In this document: positions 11,345-43,184 of the stretch, piece by piece
Numbering within the stretch: the first letter of the stretch is position 1
Layout: every line of letters starts with the position of its first letter
Origin: a virus
Taxonomy: Duplodnaviria; Caudoviricetes
IMG/VR virus record: IMGVR_UViG_3300028706_000007
Span: 1 to 54,353 of that record
Direction: 5' to 3' (one strand)
Length of the DNA: 54,353 nt
Made by a program: the position numbers and the translations under genes
The notes under the pieces: generated by a model
Seen by the model: the letters and a program-made list of their open reading frames with translations, nothing else
What the model was told of the DNA's origin: nothing
The model's database searches: none

Positions 11345-11995
11345 TTATAGTGTCCTTACGAATCCTTGATATCCAACTGCATATTTTGGATCTTTCATTA
11401 TATATGGTTCGGCTTCGGGCCATCTTCCGTTTATTACCCACTTAGCATACAGATATGCAGAATATGGATCTTTCATTATATATGGTTCGGCTTCTGTCCA
11501 TTCATCTTTTATGACCTCATTAGCATACAGAAATGCAGAAGATGGATCTTTCATTATATATGGTTCGGCTTCTAGCCATCTTCCTTCTATTACATACCTA
11601 GCATAAAAATATGCATATTTTGGATCTTTCATTATATATGGCTCGGCTTCTGGCCATTCATCTTCTATTACATACTCAGCATAAAAATATGCATATTTTG
11701 GATCTTTCATTATATATGGTTCTGCTTCTGACCATCGGTTTCCCATTACCCCACCAGCATACTCATATGCATAATATGGATCTTTCATGATGTAAGGTTC
11801 TGCTTCTTTCCATCTGCCTTCTATTACATCTCTAGCATACAGAAATGCATATCCAGGATCTTTCATTATATATGGTTCTGCTTCTTTCCAGTTACCTGTT
11901 AGTCTTGCTTCTTCATATGCGAATGATGGGATTTCAAACCTATCTTTATAGCCATATAATGTCTCTGGGTTTGTGTGTTTGCTGTATAAATTCAT
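11345..11995 (-). CDS. 26-aa tandem-repeat (helical solenoid-like) protein with shared N-terminal leader, 216 aa
   Basis: MNLYSKHTNPETLYGYKDR followed by 7 units of WxEAEPYIMKDPxxAxxYAxxVxxxx, the last degenerate. ATGA overlap with the gp25-like stop. Confidence 0.8.
   Translation of the reverse strand: MNLYSKHTNPETLYGYKDRFEIPSFAYEEARLTGNWKEAEPYIMKDPGYAFLYARDVIEGRWKEAEPYIMKDPYYAYEYAGGVMGNRWSEAEPYIMKDPKYAYFYAEYVIEDEWPEAEPYIMKDPKYAYFYARYVIEGRWLEAEPYIMKDPSSAFLYANEVIKDEWTEAEPYIMKDPYSAYLYAKWVINGRWPEAEPYIMKDPKYAVGYQGFVRTL
11380..11890. repeat. 78-bp coding tandem repeat, 7 units
   Basis: A GGATCTTTCAT-containing core recurs at 78-bp spacing (about 11388, 11466, 11544, 11622, 11700, 11778, 11856). 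Confidence 0.9.
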
Positions 11996-20932: not shown

Positions 20933-22610
20933 ATACTTAACAGTAAAACATATCAAAGAAAGTTGCTTTGGGGATATAACTTTTCCCAAAGCAATTAGCA
21001 ATGCTAGGCAAATATTATGGCATATTAGCAATAGCATTGATTCAGTGCCATTATGTCCTGTTTGTAGTTCTGAACTTGGATGGCATCCTGACAAAAGAAG
21101 ATACCGTGATTTTTGCAGTCAGAAATGCACTGGTATAGGAACTAAAGAAAAAGCAGTACAAACATCCAAAGACAATAATGGTGGTGTACACCACACACAA
21201 ACACAAGAATATAGAGATAAAGTAAAAGAAACCTCATTAAAAAGGTTTAATACAGAACATTATAGCAAAACTAGTGAATATCACCAACGAGTGATAAGTT
21301 CAAATTTAAAAACATTTGGGGCAGAATACCCTGCACAATCATCGACTGTATTAGACAAAATGAAATCAACCTCAGTGGAACGATTTGGTGTTGATAATTA
21401 CGCAAAAACCGATGAATGTCGCAATAAAACAGTTGCTACTAATTTAGAACGATATGGATTCGCAAATCCAACGCAGAATGCAGATATCCAATCAAAAACC
21501 AGATCAACCAATTTTGATCGCTATGGGGCAAATTACCCAACACAAAATGAAGCCATAATGACAAAAATAGTGGACACTCGCAGAAAAAACTACTACAGCG
21601 AAGACACATTAAGAAAACTAAATGATATTGATTGGTTATCAAATGAACAAAAAACGAGAACTATACAATCAATAGCAGGGGGGTTGGACATCAGCCCTTC
21701 AAATTTAGGAAAATTCTATATGAACTACCGAATTCCTATCACCAACGTTAATCCTCATACATCAGATGCTGAAAAAGAAGTGGTTGCTTTTATTCAAACA
21801 TTGGGTATTACAAACATCATACAGAATGATAAAACCACAATAAGTCCAAAAGAGCTAGACATATTAATACCAGATCACAACTTAGCAATTGAATTCAATG
21901 GCACTTACTGGCATACACAAGGAAAAGGAAAAGATAAACAATACCACCTATCAAAAACAACGGCTTGTGAGTCTAAAGGCATTCAATTATTACATATATC
22001 TGATTTTGAATGGAGTAATCCAGTATCCCAATCAATTTGGAAAAGTATGATTTCGGTTCGTTTACAAAGAGCTAATAGAATATATGCTAGGAAATGCAAA
22101 TTAAAAGAAGTATCAACCAAGGATGCAACTCAGTTCATGAAGAACAATCACTTAGAAGGATTTGTGGGTGGTGGGATTAAATTGGGATTATATCATCGTG
22201 ATATATTAGTCCAATGTATCATCGTTGGCAAGTCTAGGTTTAACAAACGATATCAGAATGAGTTAATTCGTTCTGCAACATTGGTAAATACCGTAGTCAT
22301 CGGAGGATTAAGTAGATTAATCAAAAACATAAAAGGGTCATTAATTTCGTATGCCAATCGTAAGTATGCGAACGGCAAGGGTTATAATGCAATCGGGATG
22401 GTCCAACAGCAGAGCAGTCCCCCAAATTATGTAGTCACTACCAAAAATGGATTAATCGTAGGGTCAAGATATAAGTTCCAAAAACACAAACTAGATAATT
22501 TATTGGATAAATTTGACCCCAATATGTCAGGGTGGTCTAACATTCAAGCGAATGGATATGATCGCATATGGGATTGTGGGAATTTAGTATATACATTGAA
22601 TGCAAAATAG
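20874..22610 (+). CDS. Putative free-standing homing endonuclease (Zn-finger, ERFG/ERYG repeats, PD-(D/E)xK/Vsr-like domain, IYARKC domain), 578 aa
   Basis: CPVC...FCSQKC; repeats KRFNTEHY / ERFGVDNY / ERYGFANP / DRYGANYP; ELDILIPDHNLAIEFNGTYWH; IYARKC...WDCG. Inserted between gp55 and gp47. Confidence 0.7.
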   Translation: MMQKLKNQEKIELNNLISRKYLTVKHIKESCFGDITFPKAISNARQILWHISNSIDSVPLCPVCSSELGWHPDKRRYRDFCSQKCTGIGTKEKAVQTSKDNNGGVHHTQTQEYRDKVKETSLKRFNTEHYSKTSEYHQRVISSNLKTFGAEYPAQSSTVLDKMKSTSVERFGVDNYAKTDECRNKTVATNLERYGFANPTQNADIQSKTRSTNFDRYGANYPTQNEAIMTKIVDTRRKNYYSEDTLRKLNDIDWLSNEQKTRTIQSIAGGLDISPSNLGKFYMNYRIPITNVNPHTSDAEKEVVAFIQTLGITNIIQNDKTTISPKELDILIPDHNLAIEFNGTYWHTQGKGKDKQYHLSKTTACESKGIQLLHISDFEWSNPVSQSIWKSMISVRLQRANRIYARKCKLKEVSTKDATQFMKNNHLEGFVGGGIKLGLYHRDILVQCIIVGKSRFNKRYQNELIRSATLVNTVVIGGLSRLIKNIKGSLISYANRKYANGKGYNAIGMVQQQSSPPNYVVTTKNGLIVGSRYKFQKHKLDNLLDKFDPNMSGWSNIQANGYDRIWDCGNLVYTLNAK

Positions 22611-22624
22611 TATATAATACACCA

Positions 22625-23635
22625 ATGGCAAATTTATTTAAAAAAGCACTAGTCTTCAGTGATATTCACCTTGGACTAAAAAACAATAGCATCACGCATA
22701 ATGAAGATTGTAAAAACTTCATTGATTGGGCAATAGAAATTGCTAAGAAAGAAAAATGCGAAACTGGTTTATTTCTAGGTGATTGGCATCATAATCGTGC
22801 AAGTATCAACCTGCATACATTGAGTTATAGTCTTAATGCACTAGAGAAACTAAGTACCGCGTTTGAAAACTTTTACTTTTTACCAGGAAATCATGATTTA
22901 TATTACAGAGACAAGCGTGATATTCACGGTGCTGAATGGGCAAAACATTTACCTAATATCAAAGTAATAAACGAATGGTTCATTGAAGACAATGTAGCCA
23001 TTATCCCGTGGTTAGTTCAAGATGATTACAAAAAAGTCAAAAAAGTAAAAGCCAAGTATGTATTTGGTCATTTTGAGTTACCACATTTTAAAATGAATGC
23101 TAATATTTCAATGCCTGATACTGGCGAAGTTAACGCCAAGGATTTTACTAAAATAGATCGTGTCTTTTCTGGACATTTCCATATGCGCCAGAAACAAGAA
23201 AATATTGAGTACATTGGCAATTGTTTCCCACATAATTTTGCTGATACTGATGATGTTGATCGTGGATGTATGACATTAGAATGGGACAAAGAACCAAAAT
23301 ATCATAATTGGGAAAATGCACCACTATATAAGGTGACCACATTAAGTGCTATTTTAGAAAATTCAGAAATATTAAAACCCAATATGTATGTTCGTGCAGT
23401 AACTGATGTTGAGATTAGTTATGAAGAATCAATGCTTTTAAAGGAACAATGCATGAAGGACAATAATTTACGGGCACTGACATTAATTTCAGAACAGACA
23501 ATAACAGATGATGAATTAGTTGATGTGAATACACAGATACAATCAGTAGATGAAATAATCAGTACCCAGCTAACAAATATCACATCTGAGTCATATGACT
23601 CCAATTTATTAATTAAAATATACCAAAATTTATGA
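22625..23635 (+). CDS. Recombination endonuclease subunit (T4 gp47/Mre11/SbcD-like), ~336 aa
   Basis: Metallophosphoesterase motifs SDIHLG, LGDWHH, GNHD, GHFE and SGHFH. Start taken at MANLFKK. Confidence 0.92.
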   Translation: MANLFKKALVFSDIHLGLKNNSITHNEDCKNFIDWAIEIAKKEKCETGLFLGDWHHNRASINLHTLSYSLNALEKLSTAFENFYFLPGNHDLYYRDKRDIHGAEWAKHLPNIKVINEWFIEDNVAIIPWLVQDDYKKVKKVKAKYVFGHFELPHFKMNANISMPDTGEVNAKDFTKIDRVFSGHFHMRQKQENIEYIGNCFPHNFADTDDVDRGCMTLEWDKEPKYHNWENAPLYKVTTLSAILENSEILKPNMYVRAVTDVEISYEESMLLKEQCMKDNNLRALTLISEQTITDDELVDVNTQIQSVDEIISTQLTNITSESYDSNLLIKIYQNL

Positions 23636-25764
23636 TTAAATTCAAAAACTTAACAATAAAAAACTTCATGAGTATCGGAAATGCTACTCAGGCAATATCA
23701 TTGGATCGTACCGATTTAACATTAGTACTCGGTGAGAACCTAGATCTAGGTAGCAATGGGTCAAGAAATGGTGTTGGAAAAACATCTCTCATTAATGCAT
23801 TAAGCTATGCATTATACGGTGGTGCATTGACCAATATCAAAAAACCCAACCTAATAAATAAAACAAATGTAAAAAATATGTTGGTTAGTATTGATTTTAC
23901 GAAAGACAATAAAGCCTACAGGATAGAGCGAGGAAGAAAACCGAATGTGCTTCGATTCTTTATTAATGATGAAGAACACATGGATGATGACGCACAAGGT
24001 GATAGCAGAGAGACACAGATGTTAATTACCTCTGTATTAGGGTTAAGCCATGCAATGTTTAAACATATAGTAGCACTCAATACATACACTGTGCCATTCT
24101 TAAATCTTAGCGTGAAAGACCAACGTGAAATTATCGAAGAACTGATGGGGATCACTCTTTTATCAGAGAAAGCACTAATGCTGAGAGATGAAATCAAGGA
24201 ATCAAAAGATATCATCAAAGAAGAAGATATTATCATTGCAACTATCAGTAACACCAATGCAAAGATACAAGAACAAATCACAAGCATAAAGATAAGCGAA
24301 ACTGAATGGGATACATCTCATATTGATACCATTGCTAGTTTATCCAATGATATAAAGGATTTGCAATCAATAGATATTGACGGCGAGATCAATAATCATG
24401 GGCTAGTAGATGAATGGAACATTGAACAAGATGAATTGAAACATATACTTAGTGTTGAATTGGAGGAATATAACCAACTAACTGATCAACTTCAAAAGCA
24501 ATACATCACCGATTTAGCTGAGTACAACAATGTAAAAGATTTACATCAGAAGCAATACAATGATGAGTTGGGGAACTACAACACATTATCTCGTGATGAA
24601 GCAGATGCACATCAGCTAATGGTTACAGCATTACAATCCACCTACACTGATCAGCTACAAGAGTTTGAGTCATATGAAAGTATGTTAACTGTGTACAACG
24701 ATAAACATAATGACCTCGAAGTATTAAATCAACAAAAAAGTGAGGTGTCTAATAACATTACAATTACCCAAGGTAATAAATGTCCATTATGCAAGCAAGA
24801 TGTTGATGATCACAACCACACCGACTTACTGAAAAAGTTATCAGATGAGTTAAGTGTCATAGAGGATAAAATGGATACTCTCTCTGATGCCATATCGGAG
24901 TTAGAAACCACTATCACTAGCACAAATGAAGTTATTAGACCGAATGAACCTATTTTACCTGAATTAACTAGTGAACTCACTAAACCGACACTAACTGCAT
25001 TAGGTGTTGATATTCCAACACTAACAAAACCGAAAATAAGCAAACCTGTAATGGGGATTGGTAAAACTAAACCAATAACATTATATGATACATTAAAGCA
25101 AGCACTAGAACATAAAAATTTACTTGGTAATTTACAGGTCAAGTTAGCAGACGAAGAAAAAGAGCCTAATCCATATACCATTCAAGTCAAGGACATGGAG
25201 ACTAATCTAATACAAACAATTAATTACGATATCATCAATGAAACAGCGATATTACTAGATCATCAGGATTTCTTGTTAAAATTACTTACCAATAAGGATA
25301 GTTTTATTCGTAAATCCATCATTGAACAAAATTTAGGATATCTGAATACTAGGTTATCATTTTATACGGCTAAAATTGGGTTACATCAGGAAGTCAAGTT
25401 CATTAATGATTTATCTGTTGAAATCACAGAAATGGGGCAGGATTTAGATTTTGATAATCTATCACGAGGCGAGCGTAATCGAGTTATATTATCATTAAGT
25501 TGGTCATTTCGTGATGTATGGGAGAGTTTATACACACCAATTAATGCTATTTTCATTGATGAAGTCATAGATTCTGGGATGGATGCAATCGGTGTTGAGA
25601 ACAGCTTATCTATTCTCAAAGGAATGGCACATGAACGACAAAAGAGTTTATGGTTAATTAGTCATAAAGATGAACTAGCTAGCAGAGTAAATAATGTATT
25701 AACTGTTACGAAAGAAGATGGGTTTACTACATTCAACGACGGGGAGCAATATGATGCCATTTAA
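23632..25764 (+). CDS. Recombination ATPase (T4 gp46/Rad50/SbcC-like), 710 aa
   Basis: KNFMSIG, Walker A NGVGKTS, zinc hook CPLC, signature LSRGE, Walker B IFIDEVID and ISHK. Confidence 0.95.
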   Translation: MIKFKNLTIKNFMSIGNATQAISLDRTDLTLVLGENLDLGSNGSRNGVGKTSLINALSYALYGGALTNIKKPNLINKTNVKNMLVSIDFTKDNKAYRIERGRKPNVLRFFINDEEHMDDDAQGDSRETQMLITSVLGLSHAMFKHIVALNTYTVPFLNLSVKDQREIIEELMGITLLSEKALMLRDEIKESKDIIKEEDIIIATISNTNAKIQEQITSIKISETEWDTSHIDTIASLSNDIKDLQSIDIDGEINNHGLVDEWNIEQDELKHILSVELEEYNQLTDQLQKQYITDLAEYNNVKDLHQKQYNDELGNYNTLSRDEADAHQLMVTALQSTYTDQLQEFESYESMLTVYNDKHNDLEVLNQQKSEVSNNITITQGNKCPLCKQDVDDHNHTDLLKKLSDELSVIEDKMDTLSDAISELETTITSTNEVIRPNEPILPELTSELTKPTLTALGVDIPTLTKPKISKPVMGIGKTKPITLYDTLKQALEHKNLLGNLQVKLADEEKEPNPYTIQVKDMETNLIQTINYDIINETAILLDHQDFLLKLLTNKDSFIRKSIIEQNLGYLNTRLSFYTAKIGLHQEVKFINDLSVEITEMGQDLDFDNLSRGERNRVILSLSWSFRDVWESLYTPINAIFIDEVIDSGMDAIGVENSLSILKGMAHERQKSLWLISHKDELASRVNNVLTVTKEDGFTTFNDGEQYDAI

Positions 25765-27526
25765 ACTAGCAAATATCACCGAATACCAATTAGAAATTAC
25801 ATCAGGGTGCAATGCTAGTTGTCCACAGTGCCCTAGAAATATTAACGGGGGTAATGTGAACCCATATTTAGATGTATCACACTTATCACAATACGCAATT
25901 GAAACTGCATTTACTAAAGAAATATGTGAATCTACCAAACGAATATTTTTTTGCGGTAGTTATGGCGATCCCATTGTTCATCCCGACTTCTTAGCTATTT
26001 TAGCAGCCTTTAGAAGAAAAAACCCAACACTATGGTTGTTTATACACACCAATGGCAGTGTCCACAACGCATCATATTGGAAAAAAATGGCAGGTATAAT
26101 AGGTGATTATGGTCACATTGACTTTAATATTGATGGATTAGCTGATACTAACCATATATACCGTAGAAATACCGATTTTAATACAATCATAGACAATGCC
26201 CAAACATTTATTAATAATGGGGGTAAAGCAAATTGGAACTTTATAGTGTATAAACACAACGAACACCAAGTCGATGAAGCACGGTTGTTATCTTCCATAA
26301 TAGGTTTCAGCGAATTCAAAACAAGGTCTACTGGGCGGTTTTTAAACCATTGCACAATGGAAGAAATGGATGGATGGCCTATAGAAAATAGATTAGGTGA
26401 ACAAGTAGGTATACTGGAGGTTCCACTCAATGAAGAATACCACAATAAAAGTTTAGCGGCGTTGCCTAAACTCAAACAAGAAACCAATATATCAGAATAT
26501 TTCAACAATACACGCATCCAGTGTGATGCACTAAACGAACACAACGCAAATAATGATTACAACAAAAAAGATGAAGGCAAAGTATTAATAAATGCTGATG
26601 GGTGGGTAATGCCTTGTAATTTTTTCAATCATAATTTACATGATGCTAGATTCCACGACCGGTATATACTTCCAGGTAGCAATGATTTAAGTTTTTTGCC
26701 AAACGGAAAGAACCAAATACAAGATCTCTTTAGCAGACACAATGCAAAATCAGAGTTGAATATTAACCATACTTCATTGCATAACATATTTCAAAATAGC
26801 TTCTGGGATGAAATTACCGATGGGTTTGATAAAAATATCAATGATGGTCGCATATTCGAATGTGCCATGACATGTGGTGAAGAATTGCACAAAGTATGGG
26901 ATCAGGTTCCTCCTTCGACACCAGCATTCTTGATAACCGGTGGCAATAGAGGATTAGGATTAGAAATAAAAAATAATTTCAATGGAACATCAATTGCTAG
27001 GTCAGAAGACAACGATATCATGGCAGATATAACTAGTAATAGTGATTTAGAACGCATAGCATTGGAAAGTTTAAAGTATGATGTTTTTGTGAATTGTGCG
27101 TTTGATGGGCCACCTGGTGAAGAATGGACTAATTTCGCCCAAGTTAACCTACTAATAAAAATATATGACATTTGGAAAGAAAATAATAAAGAAGGTCACA
27201 TAATAAACATTGGTAGCATCGGTGAAAAGAATATAGTCGCACCAGAACCAACATTCGAACGGTATAGAATAGCAAAATCAGCATTAGCACATGCTAGTAA
27301 ACAGTGCACCAACGCATTTAAGAACGATTTTGTTAAATTCAGAACAAGTTTATTATCCATTGATAGGCTTGATACACCCATTACTAGGTCAAATAAATCA
27401 TGGACGGGTAATGGATTAGATTGCGGTGATGTAATAAAATCCATAGAATATATTTTAAGCATAAACAGTAATACATGCATTGAAGAAATAGTTTCATGGG
27501 TAAATTACAAATACAAAGGCACGTAA
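25751..27526 (+). CDS. Radical SAM enzyme fused to a short-chain dehydrogenase/reductase, ~591 aa
   Basis: CNASCPQC (CxxxCxxC), GSYGDP, HTNG, IDG and extra Cys (IQCD, MPCNF, ECAMTCG), followed by LITGGNRGLG, VFVNCA, IINIGS and YRIAK. Start at ATG 25751/25754 after GGGGAG. Confidence 0.85.
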   Translation: MMPFKLANITEYQLEITSGCNASCPQCPRNINGGNVNPYLDVSHLSQYAIETAFTKEICESTKRIFFCGSYGDPIVHPDFLAILAAFRRKNPTLWLFIHTNGSVHNASYWKKMAGIIGDYGHIDFNIDGLADTNHIYRRNTDFNTIIDNAQTFINNGGKANWNFIVYKHNEHQVDEARLLSSIIGFSEFKTRSTGRFLNHCTMEEMDGWPIENRLGEQVGILEVPLNEEYHNKSLAALPKLKQETNISEYFNNTRIQCDALNEHNANNDYNKKDEGKVLINADGWVMPCNFFNHNLHDARFHDRYILPGSNDLSFLPNGKNQIQDLFSRHNAKSELNINHTSLHNIFQNSFWDEITDGFDKNINDGRIFECAMTCGEELHKVWDQVPPSTPAFLITGGNRGLGLEIKNNFNGTSIARSEDNDIMADITSNSDLERIALESLKYDVFVNCAFDGPPGEEWTNFAQVNLLIKIYDIWKENNKEGHIINIGSIGEKNIVAPEPTFERYRIAKSALAHASKQCTNAFKNDFVKFRTSLLSIDRLDTPITRSNKSWTGNGLDCGDVIKSIEYILSINSNTCIEEIVSWVNYKYKGT

Positions 27527-27580
27527 CAAAGGCATATAACAAAGGCATATAACAAAGGCATATAACAAAGGCATATAACA
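27513..27580 (+). repeat. 13-bp tandem repeat ACAAAGGCATATA, 5 copies
   Basis: One variant copy (ACAAAGGCACGTA, 27513-27525, overlapping the stop codon), four perfect copies (27526-27577) and a trailing ACA. Confidence 0.95.
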
Positions 27581-27609
27581 CATTTTTTGGTCTATAATCT
27601 ATTGATAGT

Positions 27610-28210
27610 CTAGCTTGGGACGGTTAACACAAGCGGTAACACTCCCCACAAGTGGAGGACACCTAATCCCTGGGCAATAGCAGGGATCATAGCTACTACC
27701 CCTCTGGGGATGAAGATGCAATGCGCCTCGTATTAATGCGTTTAGCTATGAGATAAGGATACGATTATAGGCTAAAAGATGTTGCTCTGAAAGAAAAAAG
27801 ATTCAACAACAAATTCAAATAATGTGTTTCGATAGTGAATATTATTTGAATTCCCGTCATAAATGTAATTATTGGTAGTAAGGAGAATGAACCCAATTGT
27901 ATTACGCAAAGTTCTAGGGTAGAAGGTATTCGGATGACCGCCTTCGTGTTTATGTGTATAGACCATAAACAATCCCTTATCACATCTGTCCGACCGCGGC
28001 TCACACGAAGAGTAGGCTATTGGATTTAACTTTGTTTGTCCATCGGATAGGCAAAGTTTGTCCAAAAGGTCTACACGAATATATAAGGTCAACCAATAAC
28101 ATAAAATACAATTGGCATAGTAATATTACCTTAATTAATCTATATACCGTATCATTGGAATTAAAAATGGGAATGAGTGCCAACGAGTTCCCAGATGCCG
28201 TAAGGCATCT
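27610..28210 (+). ncRNA. Candidate large structured non-coding RNA (class not recognised)
   Basis: At least 10 helices visible by eye in a gap with no credible gene. G-U wobbles and a GNRA loop are compatible with the plus strand. See findings. Confidence 0.6.
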
Positions 28211-28307
28211 CTACACTATTAATATAATTTAACACTTTGGTATATGTAAGGATAGGTTTAATATATAGCGACCTATTAGAAATAAAATAGGTTTATCATC
28301 TATTCTA

Positions 28308-28493
28308 TTAAAAATAAGGTAATCCTGTTTTCTTGGTAGTTTCTAAATTATCTTTAATGATCTTATTAATTGTAGACCTTTCATCGTATGATAGCTGAAG
28401 TGCTTGCACATATGAAACTCCACCACGCATGTTCCAACTGATCCTTAATGCTTCCTCCCTTATGCTATTAGCTTCCTTTTCCATGCCATCCAA
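28308..28493 (-). CDS. gp51-like small baseplate hub assembly protein; possibly the C-terminal part of a -1 frameshift product of the upstream gene
   Basis: ISWNMRGGVSYVQALQLSYDERSTINKII resembles gp51 / tail-chaperone T-frame domains. The frame is open upstream through the slippery site at 28538-28547, and no strong SD precedes the TTG/ATG. Confidence 0.65.
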   Translation of the reverse strand: MDGMEKEANSIREEALRISWNMRGGVSYVQALQLSYDERSTINKIIKDNLETTKKTGLPYF

Positions 28494-28531: not shown

Positions 28532-29365
28532 TTATCCGAAAAAATTTGACATATCCAATGTAAACGGCTGTTCATATTCATGCCCACATTCTTTTTCGTT
28601 GCATTTAATATTCAATGGTTTAAGTTCATTATCATTCTTCATTCCAATGACATAATCTTTTATGCGTTTATATACGACTCTGTCGCAATTATGCAAAAAA
28701 TCATTGATGAAATCTTCTTCCTTGACTATATTATCTGGAGTTTTGATATAATTGATATTTTGGGTTAGTGCTTTGAGTGATAATTCTGTCATGCTAGCAA
28801 ATGCAGCAGATAATCGTTTGAGTTTTTCCTCCTCCTCCATTTCTGCATCTTCTAGTACACTTGCCAATTTTTGTTCTTCAAATTGAATTACGCTATTTTC
28901 ATTGATTTGCTTATATGACAATGGTTTGAAGAAGATATTTAAATCACCAATATTCACTGATTTCTGGTAATCCGGTGATTTAAGTTGATCTAGTATCGTG
29001 CGTAAATCCAATGAATAAGTAGCAGTTTCCTTACAGGCAGGGCATGTAGTATCTATTTCCATTGAATGTCCGTAACTTGCAATTCTAATGGATGCTAATA
29101 TAGCATCAAAATCAACTGCGGGAATGATCCAAGGATCTAGGATATTAGGCACACAACTTTTGATAACATTCATAACTGCGGTGCCATTGTACAATGCATC
29201 TGGTGTTCTGTATGTTATTTCATCAATTGCTGTCATTGGGTAAATCGGCAATTCGTTATTTGGTGGCATATCTAATGTATTTTCTGGATAAAAGTTACCA
29301 TTGCTTGGTAATTTTAGGTAGATACTTGGTTGTCTGAAATAGTTGGATAGCGGGTTGTTTGACAT
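28532..29365 (-). CDS. Baseplate hub assembly chaperone (T4 gp26-like), 277 aa
   Basis: YLKLPSNG...PMTAIDEI...DFDAILASIRIASYG...CPAC...KCNEKECGH...SNFFG follows the gp26 pattern, including the terminal FF. Confidence 0.85.
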   Translation of the reverse strand: MSNNPLSNYFRQPSIYLKLPSNGNFYPENTLDMPPNNELPIYPMTAIDEITYRTPDALYNGTAVMNVIKSCVPNILDPWIIPAVDFDAILASIRIASYGHSMEIDTTCPACKETATYSLDLRTILDQLKSPDYQKSVNIGDLNIFFKPLSYKQINENSVIQFEEQKLASVLEDAEMEEEEKLKRLSAAFASMTELSLKALTQNINYIKTPDNIVKEEDFINDFLHNCDRVVYKRIKDYVIGMKNDNELKPLNIKCNEKECGHEYEQPFTLDMSNFFG

Positions 29366-31759: not shown

Positions 31760-34700
31760 ATGTCATGGAAAAAATATTTTAAAGCAGCAGATAATACCGG
31801 TGTAATGAGTCCTATTAGTGGGGCGCAAGGTGGTAAGTTCGGATTTAAGAACTATCAAAGTAGGTTACCAGAAGTTTATTCAGGACATCCAAATCGTGTT
31901 AATCGTTATAATCAGTACGAAGCAATGGATATGGATAGTGAAATAAGTGCTTGTTTAGATATTATTTCAGAGTTTAGTACACAAGACAATGATCAAAATA
32001 GCACACCATTTGATGTTGATTACCACGAGAAACCAACTGATAATGAAGTCAAACTCATTGAACAGAATTTAAAACAATGGTGTAAATTAAACCAATTCAA
32101 AAAACGTATATTTAAGTTATTCAGGAATACACTAAAATATGGAGATCAGGTATTTCTCCGTGACCCAGAAACATTTGAATTATTCTGGGTAGACATGTCC
32201 AAGGTTGGGCGTGTTATTGTTAATGAAAGCAAAGGCAAAGAACCAGATCAATACATAATACAAGATATTAACCCTAATTTTGAAAATTTATCAGTGGCAA
32301 CAAAAACCACAGATGATTTTGGAATTACACCAATGTCTGGCGGTATTTCTCCACAACAACAACAAGTGTCAAATCCGGTGGCTGGTGAAGGAACACGCTT
32401 CGGTGCTGCACAAAGAGAAACAACAGTAGATGCTAAACATATTGTTCATTTAAGTTTAACCGAAGGATTAGACTTGAATTGGCCTTTTGGTACAAGTATT
32501 CTTGAAAATATTTTCAAAGTATACAAACAAAAAGAACTATTGGAAGATGCTATTCTAATATATCGCGTTCAACGTGCGCCTGAACGAAGAGTATTTTACA
32601 TCGATGTAGGTAATATGCCATCACATATGGCAATGAGTTTTGTTGAACGAGTTAAAAATGAAATCCACCAACGTAGAATACCAACCCAATCAGGCGAGGG
32701 TGATAATATGTTGGATGCTACATACAATCCATTATGTATTGATTTAGAAACAAGAATACCATTGTTAGATGGAAGAACCCTGACATTACAGCAAGTTATA
32801 GCAGAATATAATGATGGTAAGGAAAATTGGGTATATAGTGCAGATCCTGTATCGGGTAAAGTAGTACCAGGTGAAGTGAAATGGGCTGGTGAAACACGTA
32901 AAAACACAGAAGTATTAAAATTACATTTAGATAATGGAGAGACATTAACTTGTACCCCAGATCATAAAATTCCAGTTTTGGGGAAAGGGTTTGTTGAAGC
33001 GAAAGACTTATCAATTAATGATAGTTTGATTTCATTTGAACATGCGGTTAAAAGCACAAATAAGATGACCAAACTTGTTCCCCTTCGTGAAACAATGGAC
33101 ACTGGGTGTTTAAATGTTGATAATGAATACCATACTTTTGCAATAGAATCAGGTATTTACATAAAAAATTCAATGCAAGAAGATTATTTTTTCCCGCAAT
33201 CAGCGGAAGGACGTGGTTCTAAAGTAGATACATTGCCAGGCGGGGACAATCTTGGTTGTTTTGCATTGGATACCAAAGTGAAATTATTAGATAACCGCAA
33301 TCTTAGTATTTCTGAAATAGAAGCTGAAATGAAGGATGGGAACGAGTTGTGGGCATATAGTTGTGATCCTATCACTGGAAAAATTGTGCCGGGATTGATA
33401 TCATGGGCTGGTAAAACAAGGTCAAATGCTAAAGTTCTTAAAATTGTATTAGATAATGGGGAAGAAATAGTTTGTACTCCTGATCATAAGATACCACTGC
33501 CAGGTATTGGGTTTGTTGAAGCCAAAGATTTAACAATTGGACAATCTTTGATTCCGTTGTATACAAAGAATAAAGAAATATCTAAGCATGCAAAACGTGA
33601 CTATGAAATGGTGTATGACAACGAATCTAAAAAGTGGGTATATACACATAGGTTAGTAGCGAAATACATGAGATCGAATGGATATTCTACTGAAAAGGTG
33701 TTTGATGAAGATTATATTTCAAGTTCAAAAAACACCATTCACCATAAGGATTTTAATCGTTATAATAACTCTCCTGCTAATTTAACATGGATGAACTTCA
33801 CAGATCATACATTGTATCATCAGGATAAAGGATTTTCAAAAGAAGCACAGGCATTGGGTACTCTCGCGGCAAGGGATAAAATGTATTATTTAAAAGAACA
33901 TGATCCCGAACAGTACAATGACATCATAAAACGACAAACACAGGGTAGATCACGATGGTATGAGTCGCTGACTAGTGATGAAATTGATGCACTTAATAAA
34001 AAACGGTCGGTGGGTGTGAAGAAATATTATAAAAATTTGACTAGTAATGAAAAAGAAGAGAGAAAGCAAGTCAGCCGAACTAATTGGTATAAAGGAACCG
34101 AAAAATTCTTAGCACTACTAACGGATGACACCTTTAGGCAAGAATATGGTAATAAAATCTCGGCAGGACAATCCAAATCAAAGATTGATAACCCTGAATT
34201 ATGGAAAAACCGAAGTGCAAAAATAACAGAAGCTAATATTATTAGATGGCAAACCGATGGGTACTATGATAGTGTATTTAAAGATCAAAAAATTAAGTTT
34301 AATTCTGATATGTATGAATTTGTGTCAACTCTGTATGTGACACATAAAGTAGAGCATGCCGGTGATTTCACGTCTATTATTGGGAATAATAGTACATTTA
34401 TGCAGATGTATGCTGCTGCGAATACTAAGGTTCATAGTAATACCAAGGTTGATAAATTCTCGGTTAGGCACTTGCACAAGTTATTAAAGCAAATGAATCA
34501 CACATGGGAATCATTTAAACTTATTCATTCTTACATTGTTCCCGATGATATATTGAATGATTTAATATCACAATATGATAATCAGATGTCACAGTATGAT
34601 TTTATCTCAAAGTTAAAAGATAATAATCATTTGTTGTCAAGTAGACATAAGGTTATTAACCATTTAAATAAATGTGGTATTGATAATTTCAAGACATTTA

Positions 34701-35479
34701 AAGAATTCGCCGAGTATAAGAACCATAGAATTGTTGATATAATTTATTTAGATGACACTATAGATGTCGGCACATTATCTATTGACCAAGATGAATTACA
34801 TCATGATTATCACACATTTGCACTAAGTGCTGGGGTTTTTGTTAAGAATTCAATTAATGATCTACTGTATTTCAACAATAAATTAGCACGTGGTCTAAGA
34901 GTACCAAGTAGTTATTTGCCATCTGGACCAGAGGATAATACTGCACCAGTAAATGATGGGCGATTAGGAACAGCATTAATACAAGAGTATAGATTCAACC
35001 AGTATTGTATTAGATTACAGAATGCTATTGGTGAAATGCTTAATAAAGAGTTCAAGATGTTTTTGGCTTGGCGTGGATTTAATATTGATGCTAGTTTATT
35101 TGACATATCATTTGGCGAACCACAAAACTTTGCTAGTTATAGACAGACTGAACAAGATGCATCTAGGGTAGGGACATTTGCATCACTAGAACAATATCCA
35201 TATTTGAGTAAACGTTTTTTACTTGAACGCTATCTTGGTTTATCAGAAGAAGATATGACCAAGAATGATGAACTATGGGCAGAAGAGAATAAGGAAGTAG
35301 AAGAAGTACCAACCGAGGGTTCTGATTTACGTGGTGTTGGTGTGATGCCTGGTGGAATGGAAGGCGATATTGGCATGGCTGATGATTTAGATATGATGGG
35401 TGAGATGTCAGATGATATGGGACCAGATGGAATGGAAGGTGATATGGGACCAGAAGCACCTGTGCCACCCCCTGCCTAA
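31760..35479 (+). CDS. Portal protein (T4 gp20-like) containing two inteins; 1239 aa precursor, 563 aa after splicing
   Basis: LLEDAILIYRVQRAPERRVFYIDVGNMP, EDYFFP...GRGSKVDTLPGG and YFNNKLARGLRVPSSYL. TAAATA at 31748-31753. Confidence 0.95.
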   Translation: MSWKKYFKAADNTGVMSPISGAQGGKFGFKNYQSRLPEVYSGHPNRVNRYNQYEAMDMDSEISACLDIISEFSTQDNDQNSTPFDVDYHEKPTDNEVKLIEQNLKQWCKLNQFKKRIFKLFRNTLKYGDQVFLRDPETFELFWVDMSKVGRVIVNESKGKEPDQYIIQDINPNFENLSVATKTTDDFGITPMSGGISPQQQQVSNPVAGEGTRFGAAQRETTVDAKHIVHLSLTEGLDLNWPFGTSILENIFKVYKQKELLEDAILIYRVQRAPERRVFYIDVGNMPSHMAMSFVERVKNEIHQRRIPTQSGEGDNMLDATYNPLCIDLETRIPLLDGRTLTLQQVIAEYNDGKENWVYSADPVSGKVVPGEVKWAGETRKNTEVLKLHLDNGETLTCTPDHKIPVLGKGFVEAKDLSINDSLISFEHAVKSTNKMTKLVPLRETMDTGCLNVDNEYHTFAIESGIYIKNSMQEDYFFPQSAEGRGSKVDTLPGGDNLGCFALDTKVKLLDNRNLSISEIEAEMKDGNELWAYSCDPITGKIVPGLISWAGKTRSNAKVLKIVLDNGEEIVCTPDHKIPLPGIGFVEAKDLTIGQSLIPLYTKNKEISKHAKRDYEMVYDNESKKWVYTHRLVAKYMRSNGYSTEKVFDEDYISSSKNTIHHKDFNRYNNSPANLTWMNFTDHTLYHQDKGFSKEAQALGTLAARDKMYYLKEHDPEQYNDIIKRQTQGRSRWYESLTSDEIDALNKKRSVGVKKYYKNLTSNEKEERKQVSRTNWYKGTEKFLALLTDDTFRQEYGNKISAGQSKSKIDNPELWKNRSAKITEANIIRWQTDGYYDSVFKDQKIKFNSDMYEFVSTLYVTHKVEHAGDFTSIIGNNSTFMQMYAAANTKVHSNTKVDKFSVRHLHKLLKQMNHTWESFKLIHSYIVPDDILNDLISQYDNQMSQYDFISKLKDNNHLLSSRHKVINHLNKCGIDNFKTFKEFAEYKNHRIVDIIYLDDTIDVGTLSIDQDELHHDYHTFALSAGVFVKNSINDLLYFNNKLARGLRVPSSYLPSGPEDNTAPVNDGRLGTALIQEYRFNQYCIRLQNAIGEMLNKEFKMFLAWRGFNIDASLFDISFGEPQNFASYRQTEQDASRVGTFASLEQYPYLSKRFLLERYLGLSEEDMTKNDELWAEENKEVEEVPTEGSDLRGVGVMPGGMEGDIGMADDLDMMGEMSDDMGPDGMEGDMGPEAPVPPPA
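32735..33169 (+). mobile_element. Mini-intein 1 in portal (145 aa, no endonuclease)
   Basis: Block A CIDLETRIPLLDG, block B CTPDHKI, C-terminal HTFAIESGIYIKN followed by Ser+1. Confidence 0.92.
33257..34849 (+). mobile_element. Intein 2 in portal (531 aa) with HNH-type homing endonuclease
   Basis: Block A CFALDTKVKLLDN, block B CTPDHKI, HNH-like YTHRLVA...IHHKDFNRYNNSPANL...H, C-terminal HTFALSAGVFVKN followed by Ser+1. Confidence 0.92.
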
Positions 35480-42466: not shown

Positions 42467-42551
42467 CTAAATACTAGAATGTTCTACTAATTAGAACATT
42501 TATGCAGAAACCCCTCTGCGTAGTCATAGAACGATTTTCAAGGAGAAAAAA

Positions 42552-43184
42552 ATGGGACGACCAATAAATAAAAAGCACTTTGGTAACACAAACGAAGGCG
42601 GTTTAGGCGGCGAAGGCTTAGACGGAGTATTAGTAACAGCAGCTGGCACTGGTTATTCAACCGGTGAAGCAGTAACAATTTCAGCACCACAATTACCAGG
42701 TGGTATACAAGCAACAGCAACAATTGTATCAGATGGCACTGTTGTATCTGTAACCGTAACAGAAGCAGGTACTGGTTACACATCAGTACCAACAATTACA
42801 TTTGCAACAGGCAATGCAGATGCAACAGGCACAGCGGTATTAACATCGACTAAGGTGAATGCTATTTCATTGACTGCATTCGTAACTGGTGGCAGTGATC
42901 AAATTGGTGATATAGTTGCACAAAAAGGTTCAAGGCGTTTTAGAGTAACAACTGCAACTGGTACTGAAGTCTGTAAATTAGTAACAAGTACACCGAATGC
43001 ACCTGGTGAAATGCGTATTACAGCAACAGATTCAGTAAGTGGAACATATTTTATTAGTAAAATTTCAGCTGGAACATGTACTGTTGTGCGTGGCACAGGC
43101 ACAGAATTTGCGGATGGTGTTAAAGTTGCTTGGACGAAAGGTTCAGCGGTATTGGACTATTCAGTATCAATGACCAATGCATAA
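42552..43184 (+). CDS. Probable virion structural/decoration protein, 210 aa
   Basis: Has its own TAAATA (42468-42473), strong SD AAGGAG and its own terminator; contains GTGYS/GTGYT beta-repeats. Confidence 0.7.
   Translation: MGRPINKKHFGNTNEGGLGGEGLDGVLVTAAGTGYSTGEAVTISAPQLPGGIQATATIVSDGTVVSVTVTEAGTGYTSVPTITFATGNADATGTAVLTSTKVNAISLTAFVTGGSDQIGDIVAQKGSRRFRVTTATGTEVCKLVTSTPNAPGEMRITATDSVSGTYFISKISAGTCTVVRGTGTEFADGVKVAWTKGSAVLDYSVSMTNA

What the first reader, a model, noticed from the sequence alone, without database searches (positions are those of the whole stretch)
27610..28210. Candidate ~600-nt highly structured phage ncRNA with long-range pairing, of no class I can recognise
Seen: this gap is the only large non-coding stretch in a gene-dense window, is locally GC-richer, and is tiled with helices. 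These are GCTTG/CAAGC (27613-27634); ATCCCTG/CAGGGAT (27666-27687); TCATAGCTA/TAGCTATGA (27687-27751, enclosing CCCC-TCT-GGGG); TGTTG/CAACA (~27780-27808); a perfect 12-bp AATTCAAATAAT/ATTATTTGAATT (27812-27852); GTTTATG/CATAAAC (27948-27970); CTTCGTGT/ACACGAAG (27942-28010); a long arm at 28012-28074 whose 14-bp core AACTTTGTTTGTCC/GGATAGGCAAAGTT has three G-U pairs; TGGGAA/TTCCCA (28168-28193); and a terminal AGATGCC-GTAA-GGCATCT GNRA hairpin (28193-28210). GATAAGG (27752-27758) is complementary to CCTTATC (27975-27981), which lies inside the 27942/28010 helix, so a pseudoknot is possible. GAAGG/CCTTC (27922-27945) competes with that helix. Inference: G-U pairs and the GNRA loop work on the plus strand only, which favours selection on RNA rather than DNA cruciforms. 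I see no hallmark of tmRNA, RNase P, or group I/II introns. Established: large phage-associated structured RNAs of unclear function exist (GOLLD, ROOL), and this could be a divergent member or a new class.
Basis: partly seen in the sequence, partly recalled or inferred. Interest (0 to 1): 0.88.

Follow-up and report, generated by a model that had tools for sequence, protein, structure and literature searches.

The report
Large pseudoknotted RNA of T4-like phages
The gap holds a real, roughly 490-base folded non-coding RNA; its front third is a diverged copy of the catalogued 'Polynucleobacter-1' motif, and the rest is an uncatalogued domain found in many uncultured T4-like phages.

Summary
All 13 helices are at the stated places. 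The plus strand folds better than shuffles (z -5.7; minus strand -2.8).

The RNA runs from 27599 to about 28085 (+).
- **5' third (27599-27751):** a diverged Polynucleobacter-1 RNA (RF01718). It scores 30.4 bits, below the 37-bit cut-off. A model built from the window alone recovered 11 loci near gp46; the 10 scanned are all true RF01718 at 84-108 bits.
- **5' pseudoknot:** a leader outside the Rfam model pairs with the P3 loop in 42 sequences, window included, 99% paired.
- **3' domain:** in relatives, conservation continues about 250 nt into a domain absent from Rfam. It has two more pseudoknots and strong covariation in 52 sequences. It follows RF01718 in 103 loci and stands without it in 51.
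- **Window match to that domain:** by architecture and one diagnostic motif, not by profile score.

The hairpins at 28168-28210 look like the minus-strand gp26 terminator. Nine metatranscriptome runs hold the stretch. Function is unknown; a processed, trans-acting RNA is my best guess.

The parts
27599..27751 (+). 5' domain: diverged Polynucleobacter-1 RNA (RF01718) plus its 5' leader
   Evidence: RF01718 matches 27608-27743 at 30.4 bits (cut-off 37), E 1.5e-4. Model R1, built from this stretch alone, finds true RF01718 copies. On 10 sequences 88.4% of cells are paired and 32 of 42 pairs show changes on both sides.
27599..27604 (+). PK0 5' strand (CUAUUG), pairs with 27675-27680
   Evidence: Helix found by a column-pair scan. 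On MAFFT alignment A13 of 42 sequences it is 99.2% paired; one pair reads UA 24, CG 9, GC 6, UG 2, AU 1. It lies outside the Rfam model.
27675..27680 (+). PK0 3' strand (CAAUAG) in the loop of P3
   Evidence: The window, L002 and L207 carry U-A where most relatives carry C-G.
27613..27634 (+). P1 hairpin
   Evidence: Compensatory changes against L002 and L207; 5 of 5 pairs change on both sides in A6.
27666..27687 (+). P3 hairpin with the conserved loop
   Evidence: 97.6% paired, 4 of 5 pairs change on both sides.
27688..27750 (+). P4 multi-stem (outer 27688-27695 / 27743-27750; inner hairpins 27699-27709 and 27715-27742)
   Evidence: The outer helix changes on both sides at 8 of 8 pairs in A6.
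27780..27808 (+). Pa: stem after an A-rich leader, enclosing an A-rich internal loop
   Evidence: It matches by position the Pa helix of relatives (98.1% paired, 4 of 5 pairs covary) and GUUGG/CCAAC of L002. The mapping is by eye.
27812..27852 (+). Pb: perfect 12-bp hairpin with a 17-nt loop (27824-27840)
   Evidence: It corresponds to the variable hairpin whose loop forms PK1 in relatives.
27829..27836 (+). Candidate PK1 5' strand in the Pb loop, pairs with 28016-28023 (8 bp, 3 of them G-U)
   Evidence: Read. By analogy: all 52 relatives have at least 6 contiguous complementary bases here. L002 uses the same 3' strand and L207 a compensated one. Inferred for the window.
27856..27860 (+). PK2 5' strand (GUCAU), pairs with 27934-27938
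   Evidence: Read. In relatives this helix is 98.8% paired and 3 of 5 pairs change on both sides.
27865..27905 (+). Window-specific inserted hairpin between PK2 5' strand and Pc
   Evidence: Absent from the 52 relatives of A8.
27922..27945 (+). Pc hairpin with the family's conserved loop
   Evidence: The family-derived pattern occurs once in 54 kb, at 27925-27942 (+); 0.05 matches expected by chance. Top hit of model R2, but only 10.7 bits, E 0.75. In relatives 99.2% paired.
27942..28010 (+). Window-specific branched insert: 8-bp helix 27942-27949 / 28003-28010 enclosing hairpin 27948-27970
   Evidence: The helix overlaps the 3' strand of Pc by 4 nt. It could not be tested by covariation, because the only close relatives are 99% identical.
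28012..28074 (+). Pf-like long arm (core 28028-28041 / 28045-28058, 3 G-U pairs), followed by UGUCC
   Evidence: Its place matches hairpin Pf of relatives, which is 99.5% paired. Its lower stems compete with PK1.
28163..28210 (-). Two hairpins, then a T-run on the minus strand: probable terminator of the gp26 operon, not part of the RNA
   Evidence: Inference; not listed by the scan.
27513..27580 (.). 13-nt tandem repeat, 5.2 copies, across the end of the radical-SAM ORF
   Evidence: Absent from L002 and L207. Role unknown.

Best explanation
Window 27599 to about 28085 (+) encodes one structured non-coding RNA of about 490 nt. Its 5' third is a diverged member of the Polynucleobacter-1 family (RF01718). 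That domain is closed by a pseudoknot between a 5' leader and the P3 loop, which the Rfam model does not cover. The 3' two thirds correspond to an uncatalogued domain with two further pseudoknots. This domain directly follows RF01718 in many uncultured T4-like phages and also occurs without it.

How it works (inferred). The RNA lies a few tens of bases behind a co-oriented gene at the end of the gp47-gp46 recombination cluster, and it faces the end of the late baseplate-hub gene gp26. I therefore think it is co-transcribed with the upstream gene. I think it is then cut out or kept as a stable, compactly folded RNA that acts in trans during infection. It would act as a protein- or nucleic-acid-binding scaffold or a ribozyme, not as a switch for a neighbouring gene.

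My odds: a real structured RNA, about 0.9. The 5' domain is homologous to RF01718, about 0.9. The window's 3' part is homologous to the relatives' 3' domain, about 0.7. Trans-acting rather than cis-regulatory, about 0.6.
For: - **Fold:** plus strand z -5.7 against -2.8 on the minus strand; 3' part z -2.5 against -0.9.
- **5' domain, Rfam:** RF01718 scores 30.4 bits here and 24.3 bits at the syntenic place in L002, whose gp46 is 84% identical.
- **5' domain, reciprocal test:** model R1, built from the window alone, found 13 matches in 82 sources, all on the gp46 strand. The 10 that were scanned are RF01718 at 84-108 bits.
- **5' domain, covariation:** 88.4% of cells paired and 32 of 42 pairs changed on both sides; slid controls gave 6-13. 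That alignment was fitted to the model.
- **PK0:** 99.2% paired in 42 sequences on a MAFFT alignment that includes the window.
- **3' domain, extent:** conservation runs about 400 nt from the RNA start. Its core pattern is in at least 120 viral contigs and in none of the representative genomes of 185,579 prokaryote species.
- **3' domain, link to RF01718:** it follows the 5' domain at a median gap of 6 nt in 103 loci.
- **3' domain, covariation:** on a MAFFT alignment of 52 sequences, 97.7% paired and 170 cells changed on both sides; slid controls gave at most 15. PK1 complementarity is present in 52 of 52.
- **3' domain, catalogue:** no Rfam family matches it.
- **Window's 3' part:** the diagnostic loop motif occurs once in 54 kb, at the expected place. 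The PK2 arms are present. L002 and L207 keep about 480 nt with compensated helices.
- **Context:** the upstream ORF is co-oriented in 47 of 49 loci; the downstream ORF is convergent in 31 of 42 and is a baseplate hub in 24 of 42.
- **RNA libraries:** nine metatranscriptome runs from 6 studies hold the stretch. Contigs from 4 of them cover it at 99% identity or more.
Against: - The RF01718 score is below Rfam's cut-off.
- Neither HMM of the relatives finds the window or L002.
- Model R2 gives only 10.7 bits, E 0.75, for the window and nothing for L002 or L207.
- The helices of the window's 3' part were mapped by eye. They cannot be tested by covariation, because its only close relatives are 99% identical.
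- The window's PK1 partner is ambiguous.
- No promoter, start, end or strand of a transcript was shown. The RNA-library evidence is assembled contigs, which also cover the flanking genes and could include DNA.
- No experiment bears on the function.
- In 11 of 42 loci a co-oriented ORF follows the RNA, so a cis-acting role is not excluded.
Confidence: 0.75

Rival explanations
1. It is a cis-acting regulatory RNA for a flanking gene (riboswitch, attenuator, anti-terminator or 3'-UTR stabiliser). This is how the 2010 survey tentatively filed Polynucleobacter-1.
For: The table row in Weinberg 2010 marks the motif as likely cis-regulatory, with 'switch' left open (PMC2864571, passage seen). The RNA starts a few tens of bases after a co-oriented ORF in 47 of 49 loci, and a co-oriented ORF follows in 11 of 42. 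One example is L122, where a ribosome-binding site and ATG lie about 70 nt after the RNA.
Against: In 31 of 42 loci, the window included, the next gene is convergent, so no gene lies downstream to control. The upstream gene is not conserved: a GIY-YIG-like protein in 29 of 49, RusA in 10 of 49, radical SAM in the window. About 400-490 nt with three pseudoknots is far beyond known attenuators.
Confidence: 0.15
2. Only the first ~150 nt (the Polynucleobacter-1 domain) is functional in this phage. The remaining ~330 nt is diverged spacer with chance hairpins and terminators.
For: Window and L002 align only over the 5' ~150 nt. The relatives' 3'-domain profiles do not score the window. The 3' part folds only moderately better than shuffles, z -2.5.
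Against: The family's loop motif sits at the expected place, with 0.05 matches expected per window, and the PK2 arms are present. The strand asymmetry holds (z -2.5 against -0.9). The sister lineage L002/L207 conserves about 480 nt with compensated helices, in the same order of elements. In 103 loci the two domains are contiguous.
Confidence: 0.1
3. It is a DNA-level element between the recombination and baseplate modules, such as a replication origin with iterons, a recombination hotspot or cruciforms, and not an RNA.
For: A 13-nt repeat of 5.2 copies lies directly upstream. The region borders the gp46/gp47 recombination genes. Many of the helices are perfect inverted repeats.
Against: G-U pairs are conserved; the closing pair of Pc is U-G in 51 of 52 sequences, and that would be a mismatch on the other strand. 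Folding is asymmetric between strands. Pseudoknot covariation has no DNA explanation. The repeat is absent from L002 and L207.
Confidence: 0.03
4. The gap holds a small protein gene: the 106-aa ORF 27772-28092 (-) or the 70-aa ORF 28020-28232 (+).
For: Both ORFs exist. At 103-106 codons the stop-free stretch is in the upper tail of shuffles, whose 95th percentile is 95.
Against: Neither ORF matches Pfam or PHROGs. tblastn of the 106-aa ORF against 208 loci finds only the identical strain L208; the next best E-value is 0.24. In 39 relatives the longest stop-free stretch has a median of 68 codons, against 63 in shuffles.
Confidence: 0.02

Closest known systems
Polynucleobacter-1 RNA motif (Rfam RF01718; Weinberg et al. 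2010, PMC2864571)
   Same: The 5' domain has the same order of hairpins (P1, P2, P3 with the conserved loop, then a multi-stem junction) and a full-length match to the model. It lies on the same strand and at the same locus as true members in gp46-bearing phage contigs.
   Different: It scores below the gathering cut-off, and the outer helix of the junction closes in a different register (alignment). The published model is 141 nt, whereas here and in relatives the RNA continues for another ~250-330 nt. A 5' leader also forms a pseudoknot outside the model. The 2010 table lists the family for Burkholderiales and fresh water/estuary. The runs that hold this window are labelled marine or seawater.
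GOLLD and ROOL, large ornate RNAs often carried by phages or prophages
   Same: It is a large, intricately folded non-coding RNA of unknown function, carried by phages and found mainly in environmental sequence. It resembles them in kind, not in sequence. My picture of GOLLD and ROOL is partly recalled; of PMC12286853 I saw only the search listing and the start of the abstract.
   Different: No Rfam match to either, even at E up to 10. It is shorter, about 400-490 nt. It has a different architecture and a fixed genomic place in T4-like phages. Oligomer formation was not tested.
Short candidate structured RNAs predicted from IMG/VR (PMC10690425, 2023)
   Same: That survey mined intergenic regions of the same kind of viral contigs and excluded Rfam families, so pieces of the 3' domain may be among its 8,495 candidates.
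   Different: Its candidates are 29-151 bases long (passage seen), so none can be the whole RNA. The main text does not mention Polynucleobacter (0 occurrences). Its supplementary tables and models were not available to me, so overlap could not be checked.

Membership tests
Polynucleobacter-1 RNA (RF01718) | Score at or above Rfam's gathering cut-off (37 bits) | tested here: not met
   30.4 bits, E 1.5e-4 in a 1-kb scan; not listed in the gathering scan of the whole window.
Polynucleobacter-1 RNA (RF01718) | Full-length match with hairpins P1, P2 and P3, the conserved P3 loop and the multi-stem junction | tested here: met
   Model positions 1-141 of 141 are aligned. The helices are kept with compensatory changes in A6. 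A few pairs of the last helix are non-standard in the Rfam register.
Polynucleobacter-1 RNA (RF01718) | Reciprocal recovery: a model built from this sequence finds accepted members | tested here: met
   R1 found 11 further loci besides the window and L002. Ten of the 11 were scanned (L059, whose hit matched L058's in place and score, was left out) and all 10 are RF01718 at 84-108 bits.
Polynucleobacter-1 RNA (RF01718) | Same genomic place and strand as accepted members | tested here: met
   It lies behind a co-oriented gene downstream of gp46 and about 600 nt before the convergent gp26 hub gene.
Extended phage RNA (RF01718 domain plus uncatalogued 3' domain, defined here) | Leader-to-P3-loop pseudoknot (PK0) | tested here: met
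   27599-27604 pairs with 27675-27680; 99.2% paired over 42 sequences.
Extended phage RNA (RF01718 domain plus uncatalogued 3' domain, defined here) | Sequence-profile match to the 3' domain | tested here: not met
   nhmmer with HMMs from A7 and A8 finds no hit in the window, L002 or L207.
Extended phage RNA (RF01718 domain plus uncatalogued 3' domain, defined here) | Pc hairpin with the conserved loop, and PK2 to an upstream strand | tested here: inconclusive
   The motif occurs once in the window at the expected place, 0.05 expected, and the PK2 arms are complementary. But model R2 gives only 10.7 bits, E 0.75 over 80 kb.
Extended phage RNA (RF01718 domain plus uncatalogued 3' domain, defined here) | Order Pa, Pb (loop forms PK1), PK2 strand, Pc, PK1 3' strand, Pf | tested here: inconclusive
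   All elements can be placed by eye, with two inserts (27865-27905 and 27942-28010). Covariation could not be tested in the window's own lineage. L002 and L207 support the same order.
GOLLD, ROOL, OLE, HEARO, group I/II introns, RNase P, tmRNA | Match to the family's covariance model or detector | tested here: not met
   None appears among the 4 matches at E up to 10 in 27400-28400. ARAGORN finds no tRNA or tmRNA in the window.

The most novel reading that the evidence does not exclude
Polynucleobacter-1, catalogued since 2010 as a 141-nt motif of unknown role, would be only the front third of an undescribed class of 400-490-nt RNAs with three pseudoknots. These RNAs are found at the same locus, the boundary between the recombination genes and the baseplate genes, in uncultured aquatic T4-like and jumbo phages. 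The 3' domain can also exist with other 5' modules. Complexity of this order is otherwise seen in ribozymes and in RNA-only assemblies such as GOLLD and ROOL. The class may therefore have a biochemical activity of its own (catalysis, a defined partner, or self-assembly) used during lytic infection.
Probability: 0.45. Interest if true: 0.85.

Novelty: new variant of a known kind. Interest (0 to 1): 0.75.

Why it matters
- **Scarcity.** Few large, intricately folded bacterial or phage RNAs are known, and some have turned out to be ribozymes or unusual RNA assemblies.
- **Reach.** A catalogued orphan motif proves to be part of a much larger RNA with at least three covariation-supported pseudoknots. 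It is present in at least 120 viral contigs and was not found in the representative genomes of 185,579 prokaryote species.
- **A defined target.** This gives a widespread, phage-specific RNA for structure and function work, and it shows that the current Rfam model is truncated at both ends.
- **This window.** It adds a diverged marine lineage that is present in metatranscriptome libraries. That lineage widens the family and supplies compensatory changes at PK0.

Tried and rejected
- **Single-protein locus searches.** gp26 and the radical-SAM protein found no relatives in viral contigs.
- **First DNA pattern.** It gave one chance hit, L003, inside an ORF with no RNA similarity.
- **GenBank phages.** blastn of the window RNA and of a canonical RNA against 50,697 records found nothing. 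The closest cultured gp46 belongs to Pseudomonas phage PA5oct at 45% identity, and that genome has no RF01718.
- **Model rebuild.** I built a shorter model of another part instead.
- **RNAalifold on A8.** It recovered only 3 simple helices, because MAFFT does not align the variable hairpins by structure. PK1 was therefore tested sequence by sequence.
- **Loose 5'-domain pattern in species genomes.** I could not locate the copy in Polynucleobacter itself.
- **TATAAT at 27593-27598 as the RNA's -10.** Rejected, because PK0 needs 27599-27604 inside the RNA. The promoter scan is at chance level, 11 found against 10.6 expected.
- **Contig starts at 27551 in four RNA runs.** I read these as assembly breaks in the tandem repeat, not as a transcript start. 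Depth differences between the RNA and its flanks are not used.
- **P1-loop to Pc-loop kissing contact.** It is complementary in L002 (6 bp) and L207 (7 bp) but not in the window or the canonical sequences, so I dropped it as a general feature.
- **Resemblance to RNase P.** A resemblance between the Pc loop and part of RNase P RNA occurred to me from memory only. No RNase P model matched, so I dropped it.
- **Literature.** Searches for 'Polynucleobacter-1', for structured RNA with T4-like phage, for large phage RNAs and for phage structured-RNA surveys found no description of the extended RNA. The search for 'freshwater-2' gave only unrelated papers.

Full report
**Setting.** The window is a 54-kb fragment of an uncultured virus record; CheckV puts its completeness at 16. 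It carries T4-type core genes:
- gp47-like nuclease, 22568-23635 (+)
- gp46-like ATPase, 23632-25764 (+)
- a radical-SAM protein, 25718-27526 (+)
- the gap
- a 61-aa ORF, 28308-28493 (-)
- the gp26 baseplate hub, 28532-29365 (-)
- a 770-aa ORF (+)
- a T4-type portal gene with an intein

The gap therefore lies between convergent genes. The closest cultured gp46 is that of Pseudomonas jumbo phage PA5oct, at 45% identity.

**Checking the observation.** The stretch 27590-28215 folds at -179 kcal/mol on the plus strand, z -5.71; the minus strand gives z -2.81. GC rises to 0.445 at 27600-27799. The gathering scan of Rfam 15 finds nothing in the gap. ARAGORN finds no tRNA or tmRNA.

**The 5' third is a diverged Polynucleobacter-1 RNA.**
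- A permissive Rfam scan gives a full-length match to RF01718 at 27608-27743 (+): 30.4 bits against a cut-off of 37, E 1.5e-4.
- The one close relative found through gp46 is L002, 84% identical in that protein. It has a syntenic gap with its own sub-threshold RF01718 match of 24.3 bits. Outside the first ~150 nt the two gaps no longer align.
- I built covariance model R1 from the window sequence alone and searched 80 gp46-bearing viral loci. It found 11 further loci, all full length and all on the gp46 strand. I scanned 10 of them with Rfam, and all 10 are true RF01718 at 84-108 bits.
- On the model-fitted alignment of 10 sequences, 88.4% of cells pair and 32 of 42 pairs change on both sides. 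Slid controls give 6-13.
- A scan for covarying column runs then showed that the conserved leader just 5' of the Rfam model pairs with the P3 loop. On a plain MAFFT alignment of 42 sequences, including the window, L002 and L207, this helix (PK0) is 99.2% paired. One pair reads UA 24, CG 9, GC 6, UG 2, AU 1.
- In the window, PK0 is 27599-27604 with 27675-27680. It carries a U-A pair where most relatives have C-G.
- The RNA therefore begins at or before 27599, and the TATAAT at 27593-27598 cannot be its -10 box.

**The RNA is much longer than the Rfam model.**
- In every true RF01718 locus where the downstream side is visible, about 600 nt separate the motif from the convergent hub gene.
- Seven such loci stay alignable for about 400 nt from the RNA start.
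It hit none of the representative genomes of 185,579 prokaryote species.
- I ran nhmmer profiles over the 204 loci then held; some contigs appear twice. They find this 3' domain in 157 loci and the 5' domain in 104. Both are present in 103 loci, with a median gap of 6 nt. In 51 loci the 3' domain has room upstream but no detectable 5' domain. R1 also finds none in those 51.
- Of 143 full-length 3' domains, 86 are distinct, and 52 remain at under 93% identity.
- On their MAFFT alignment A8, helices Pa, Pa', Pc and Pf and pseudoknot PK2 are 97.7% paired, with 170 cells changed on both sides. Slid controls give at most 15.
- A second pseudoknot, PK1, joins the loop of a variable hairpin to the segment just 5' of a conserved UGUG. 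It shows at least 6 contiguous complementary bases in 52 of 52 sequences, mean 8.3, and the sequences differ by clade. The cross-sequence control is weaker: mean 6.25, with 17% of cross pairs reaching 8. Related sequences share pseudoknot sequences, which inflates it.
- No Rfam family matches this domain.
- Stop-free stretches in 39 full-length relatives equal those of shuffles.

**Does the window have the 3' domain?** The evidence is mixed.
- Against: sequence profiles do not find it. A small model of the PK2-to-Pc region puts its best hit in 80 kb exactly at 27899-27947 (+), but at only 10.7 bits, E 0.75.
- For: a pattern taken from the family's Pc loop occurs once in the 54-kb window, at 27925-27942 (+), with 0.05 matches expected by chance.
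- For: the PK2 arms (27856-27860 with 27934-27938) and the Pc stem (27922-27927 with 27940-27945) are in place.
- For: the order Pa, Pb, PK2 strand, Pc, Pf can be laid on the sequence with two lineage-specific inserts.
- For: the sister lineage L002 and L207 conserves about 480 nt with compensated helices, such as CAUAUAG/CUAUAUG against CACACAG/CUGUGUG. It also has a compensated PK1 whose 3' strand in L002 matches window 28016-28023.
Neither can be tested, because the other members of the window's own lineage (L206, L208) are 99% identical to it.
- The 3' part folds better on the plus strand (z -2.5) than on the minus strand (z -0.9).

**Ends and neighbours.**
- The conserved span ends near 28085.
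- On the minus strand, the hairpin at 28168-28193 is followed by TTTTT, and I read it together with 28193-28210 as the terminator of the gp26 operon (inference).
- A strain variant (L208) carries about 2.9 kb of extra genes between 28268 and 28308. One metatranscriptome contig diverges at the same point.
- Across 52 representative loci, the nearest upstream ORF is co-oriented in 47 of 49. It is a GIY-YIG-like 142-aa protein in 29 and RusA in 10.
- The nearest downstream ORF is convergent in 31 of 42 and is a baseplate hub in 24.
- There is little or no room for a promoter between the upstream stop codon and PK0.

**Expression.** Nine metatranscriptome runs from 6 studies, labelled marine or seawater, hold 59-79% of the sampled words. 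Contigs from 4 runs of 4 studies cover 27551 onward at 99% identity or more. They also cover the flanking genes, and contigs cannot show strand, ends or level. This is therefore presence in RNA libraries, not proof of a discrete transcript.

**Interpretation.**
- Shown: a conserved plus-strand RNA structure with a known 5' domain and an uncatalogued 3' domain.
- Inferred: co-transcription with the upstream gene, processing to a stable RNA, and action in trans.
- The convergent layout in most loci, and the lack of a conserved neighbouring gene on the same strand, argue against the cis-regulatory label given tentatively in 2010 (PMC2864571, table row seen).

**Prior work.**
- In the searchable library, only the 2010 survey mentions Polynucleobacter-1.
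- A 2023 survey of IMG/VR reports candidates of 29-151 bases (PMC10690425, passages seen).

Noticed in passing
window 42480-42554 (+): A freshwater-2 RNA (RF02980) scores above its gathering cut-off (52.3 bits against 49.9). It ends at the start of ORF 42552-43184. So the same phage carries a second catalogued environmental RNA motif.
   Followed up: no
window 27513-27580: A 13-nt tandem repeat of 5.2 copies, 96% matching, spans the stop codon of the radical-SAM ORF just upstream of the RNA. It is absent from L002 and L207. It coincides with the point (27551) where contigs of four RNA runs begin.
   Followed up: partly
window 28268-28308; L208 2028-4913: A 99%-identical strain has about 2.9 kb inserted right after the RNA. 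The insert holds four ORFs that match only PHROGs of unknown function or nothing. A metatranscriptome contig of run X2 diverges at 28268 as well.
   Followed up: partly
loci such as L122 7650-7830, L188, L008, L005, L012 (first ~24 columns of A8): The 51 loci with the 3' domain but no Polynucleobacter-1 domain carry a different upstream module. It includes a hairpin with covarying stems and a conserved UGAC-type loop directly before the A-rich leader. The RNA appears to be modular.
   Followed up: partly
window 31760-35479 (+): The T4-type portal gene is interrupted by an intein with an HNH endonuclease domain.
   Followed up: no
L209 9868-10530 (Pseudomonas phage PA5oct, record 76517-77179): A 663-nt gap without annotated genes lies near the gp46 and hub-like genes. 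It folds far better than shuffles (z -9.1) but has no RF01718 match. Any relation to the RNA studied here is unknown.
   Followed up: no
L306 (1,320-nt contig of a gammaproteobacterial MAG): This is the only true 5' domain among 120 pattern hits in species genomes (98 bits by nhmmer). No 3' domain was detected in the ~550 nt downstream. It is probably a phage fragment binned into a MAG.
   Followed up: no
window 11378-11885 (-): A 78-nt unit is repeated 6.5 times, 79% matching, inside ORF 11345-11995. It looks like a repeat-containing structural protein.
   Followed up: no
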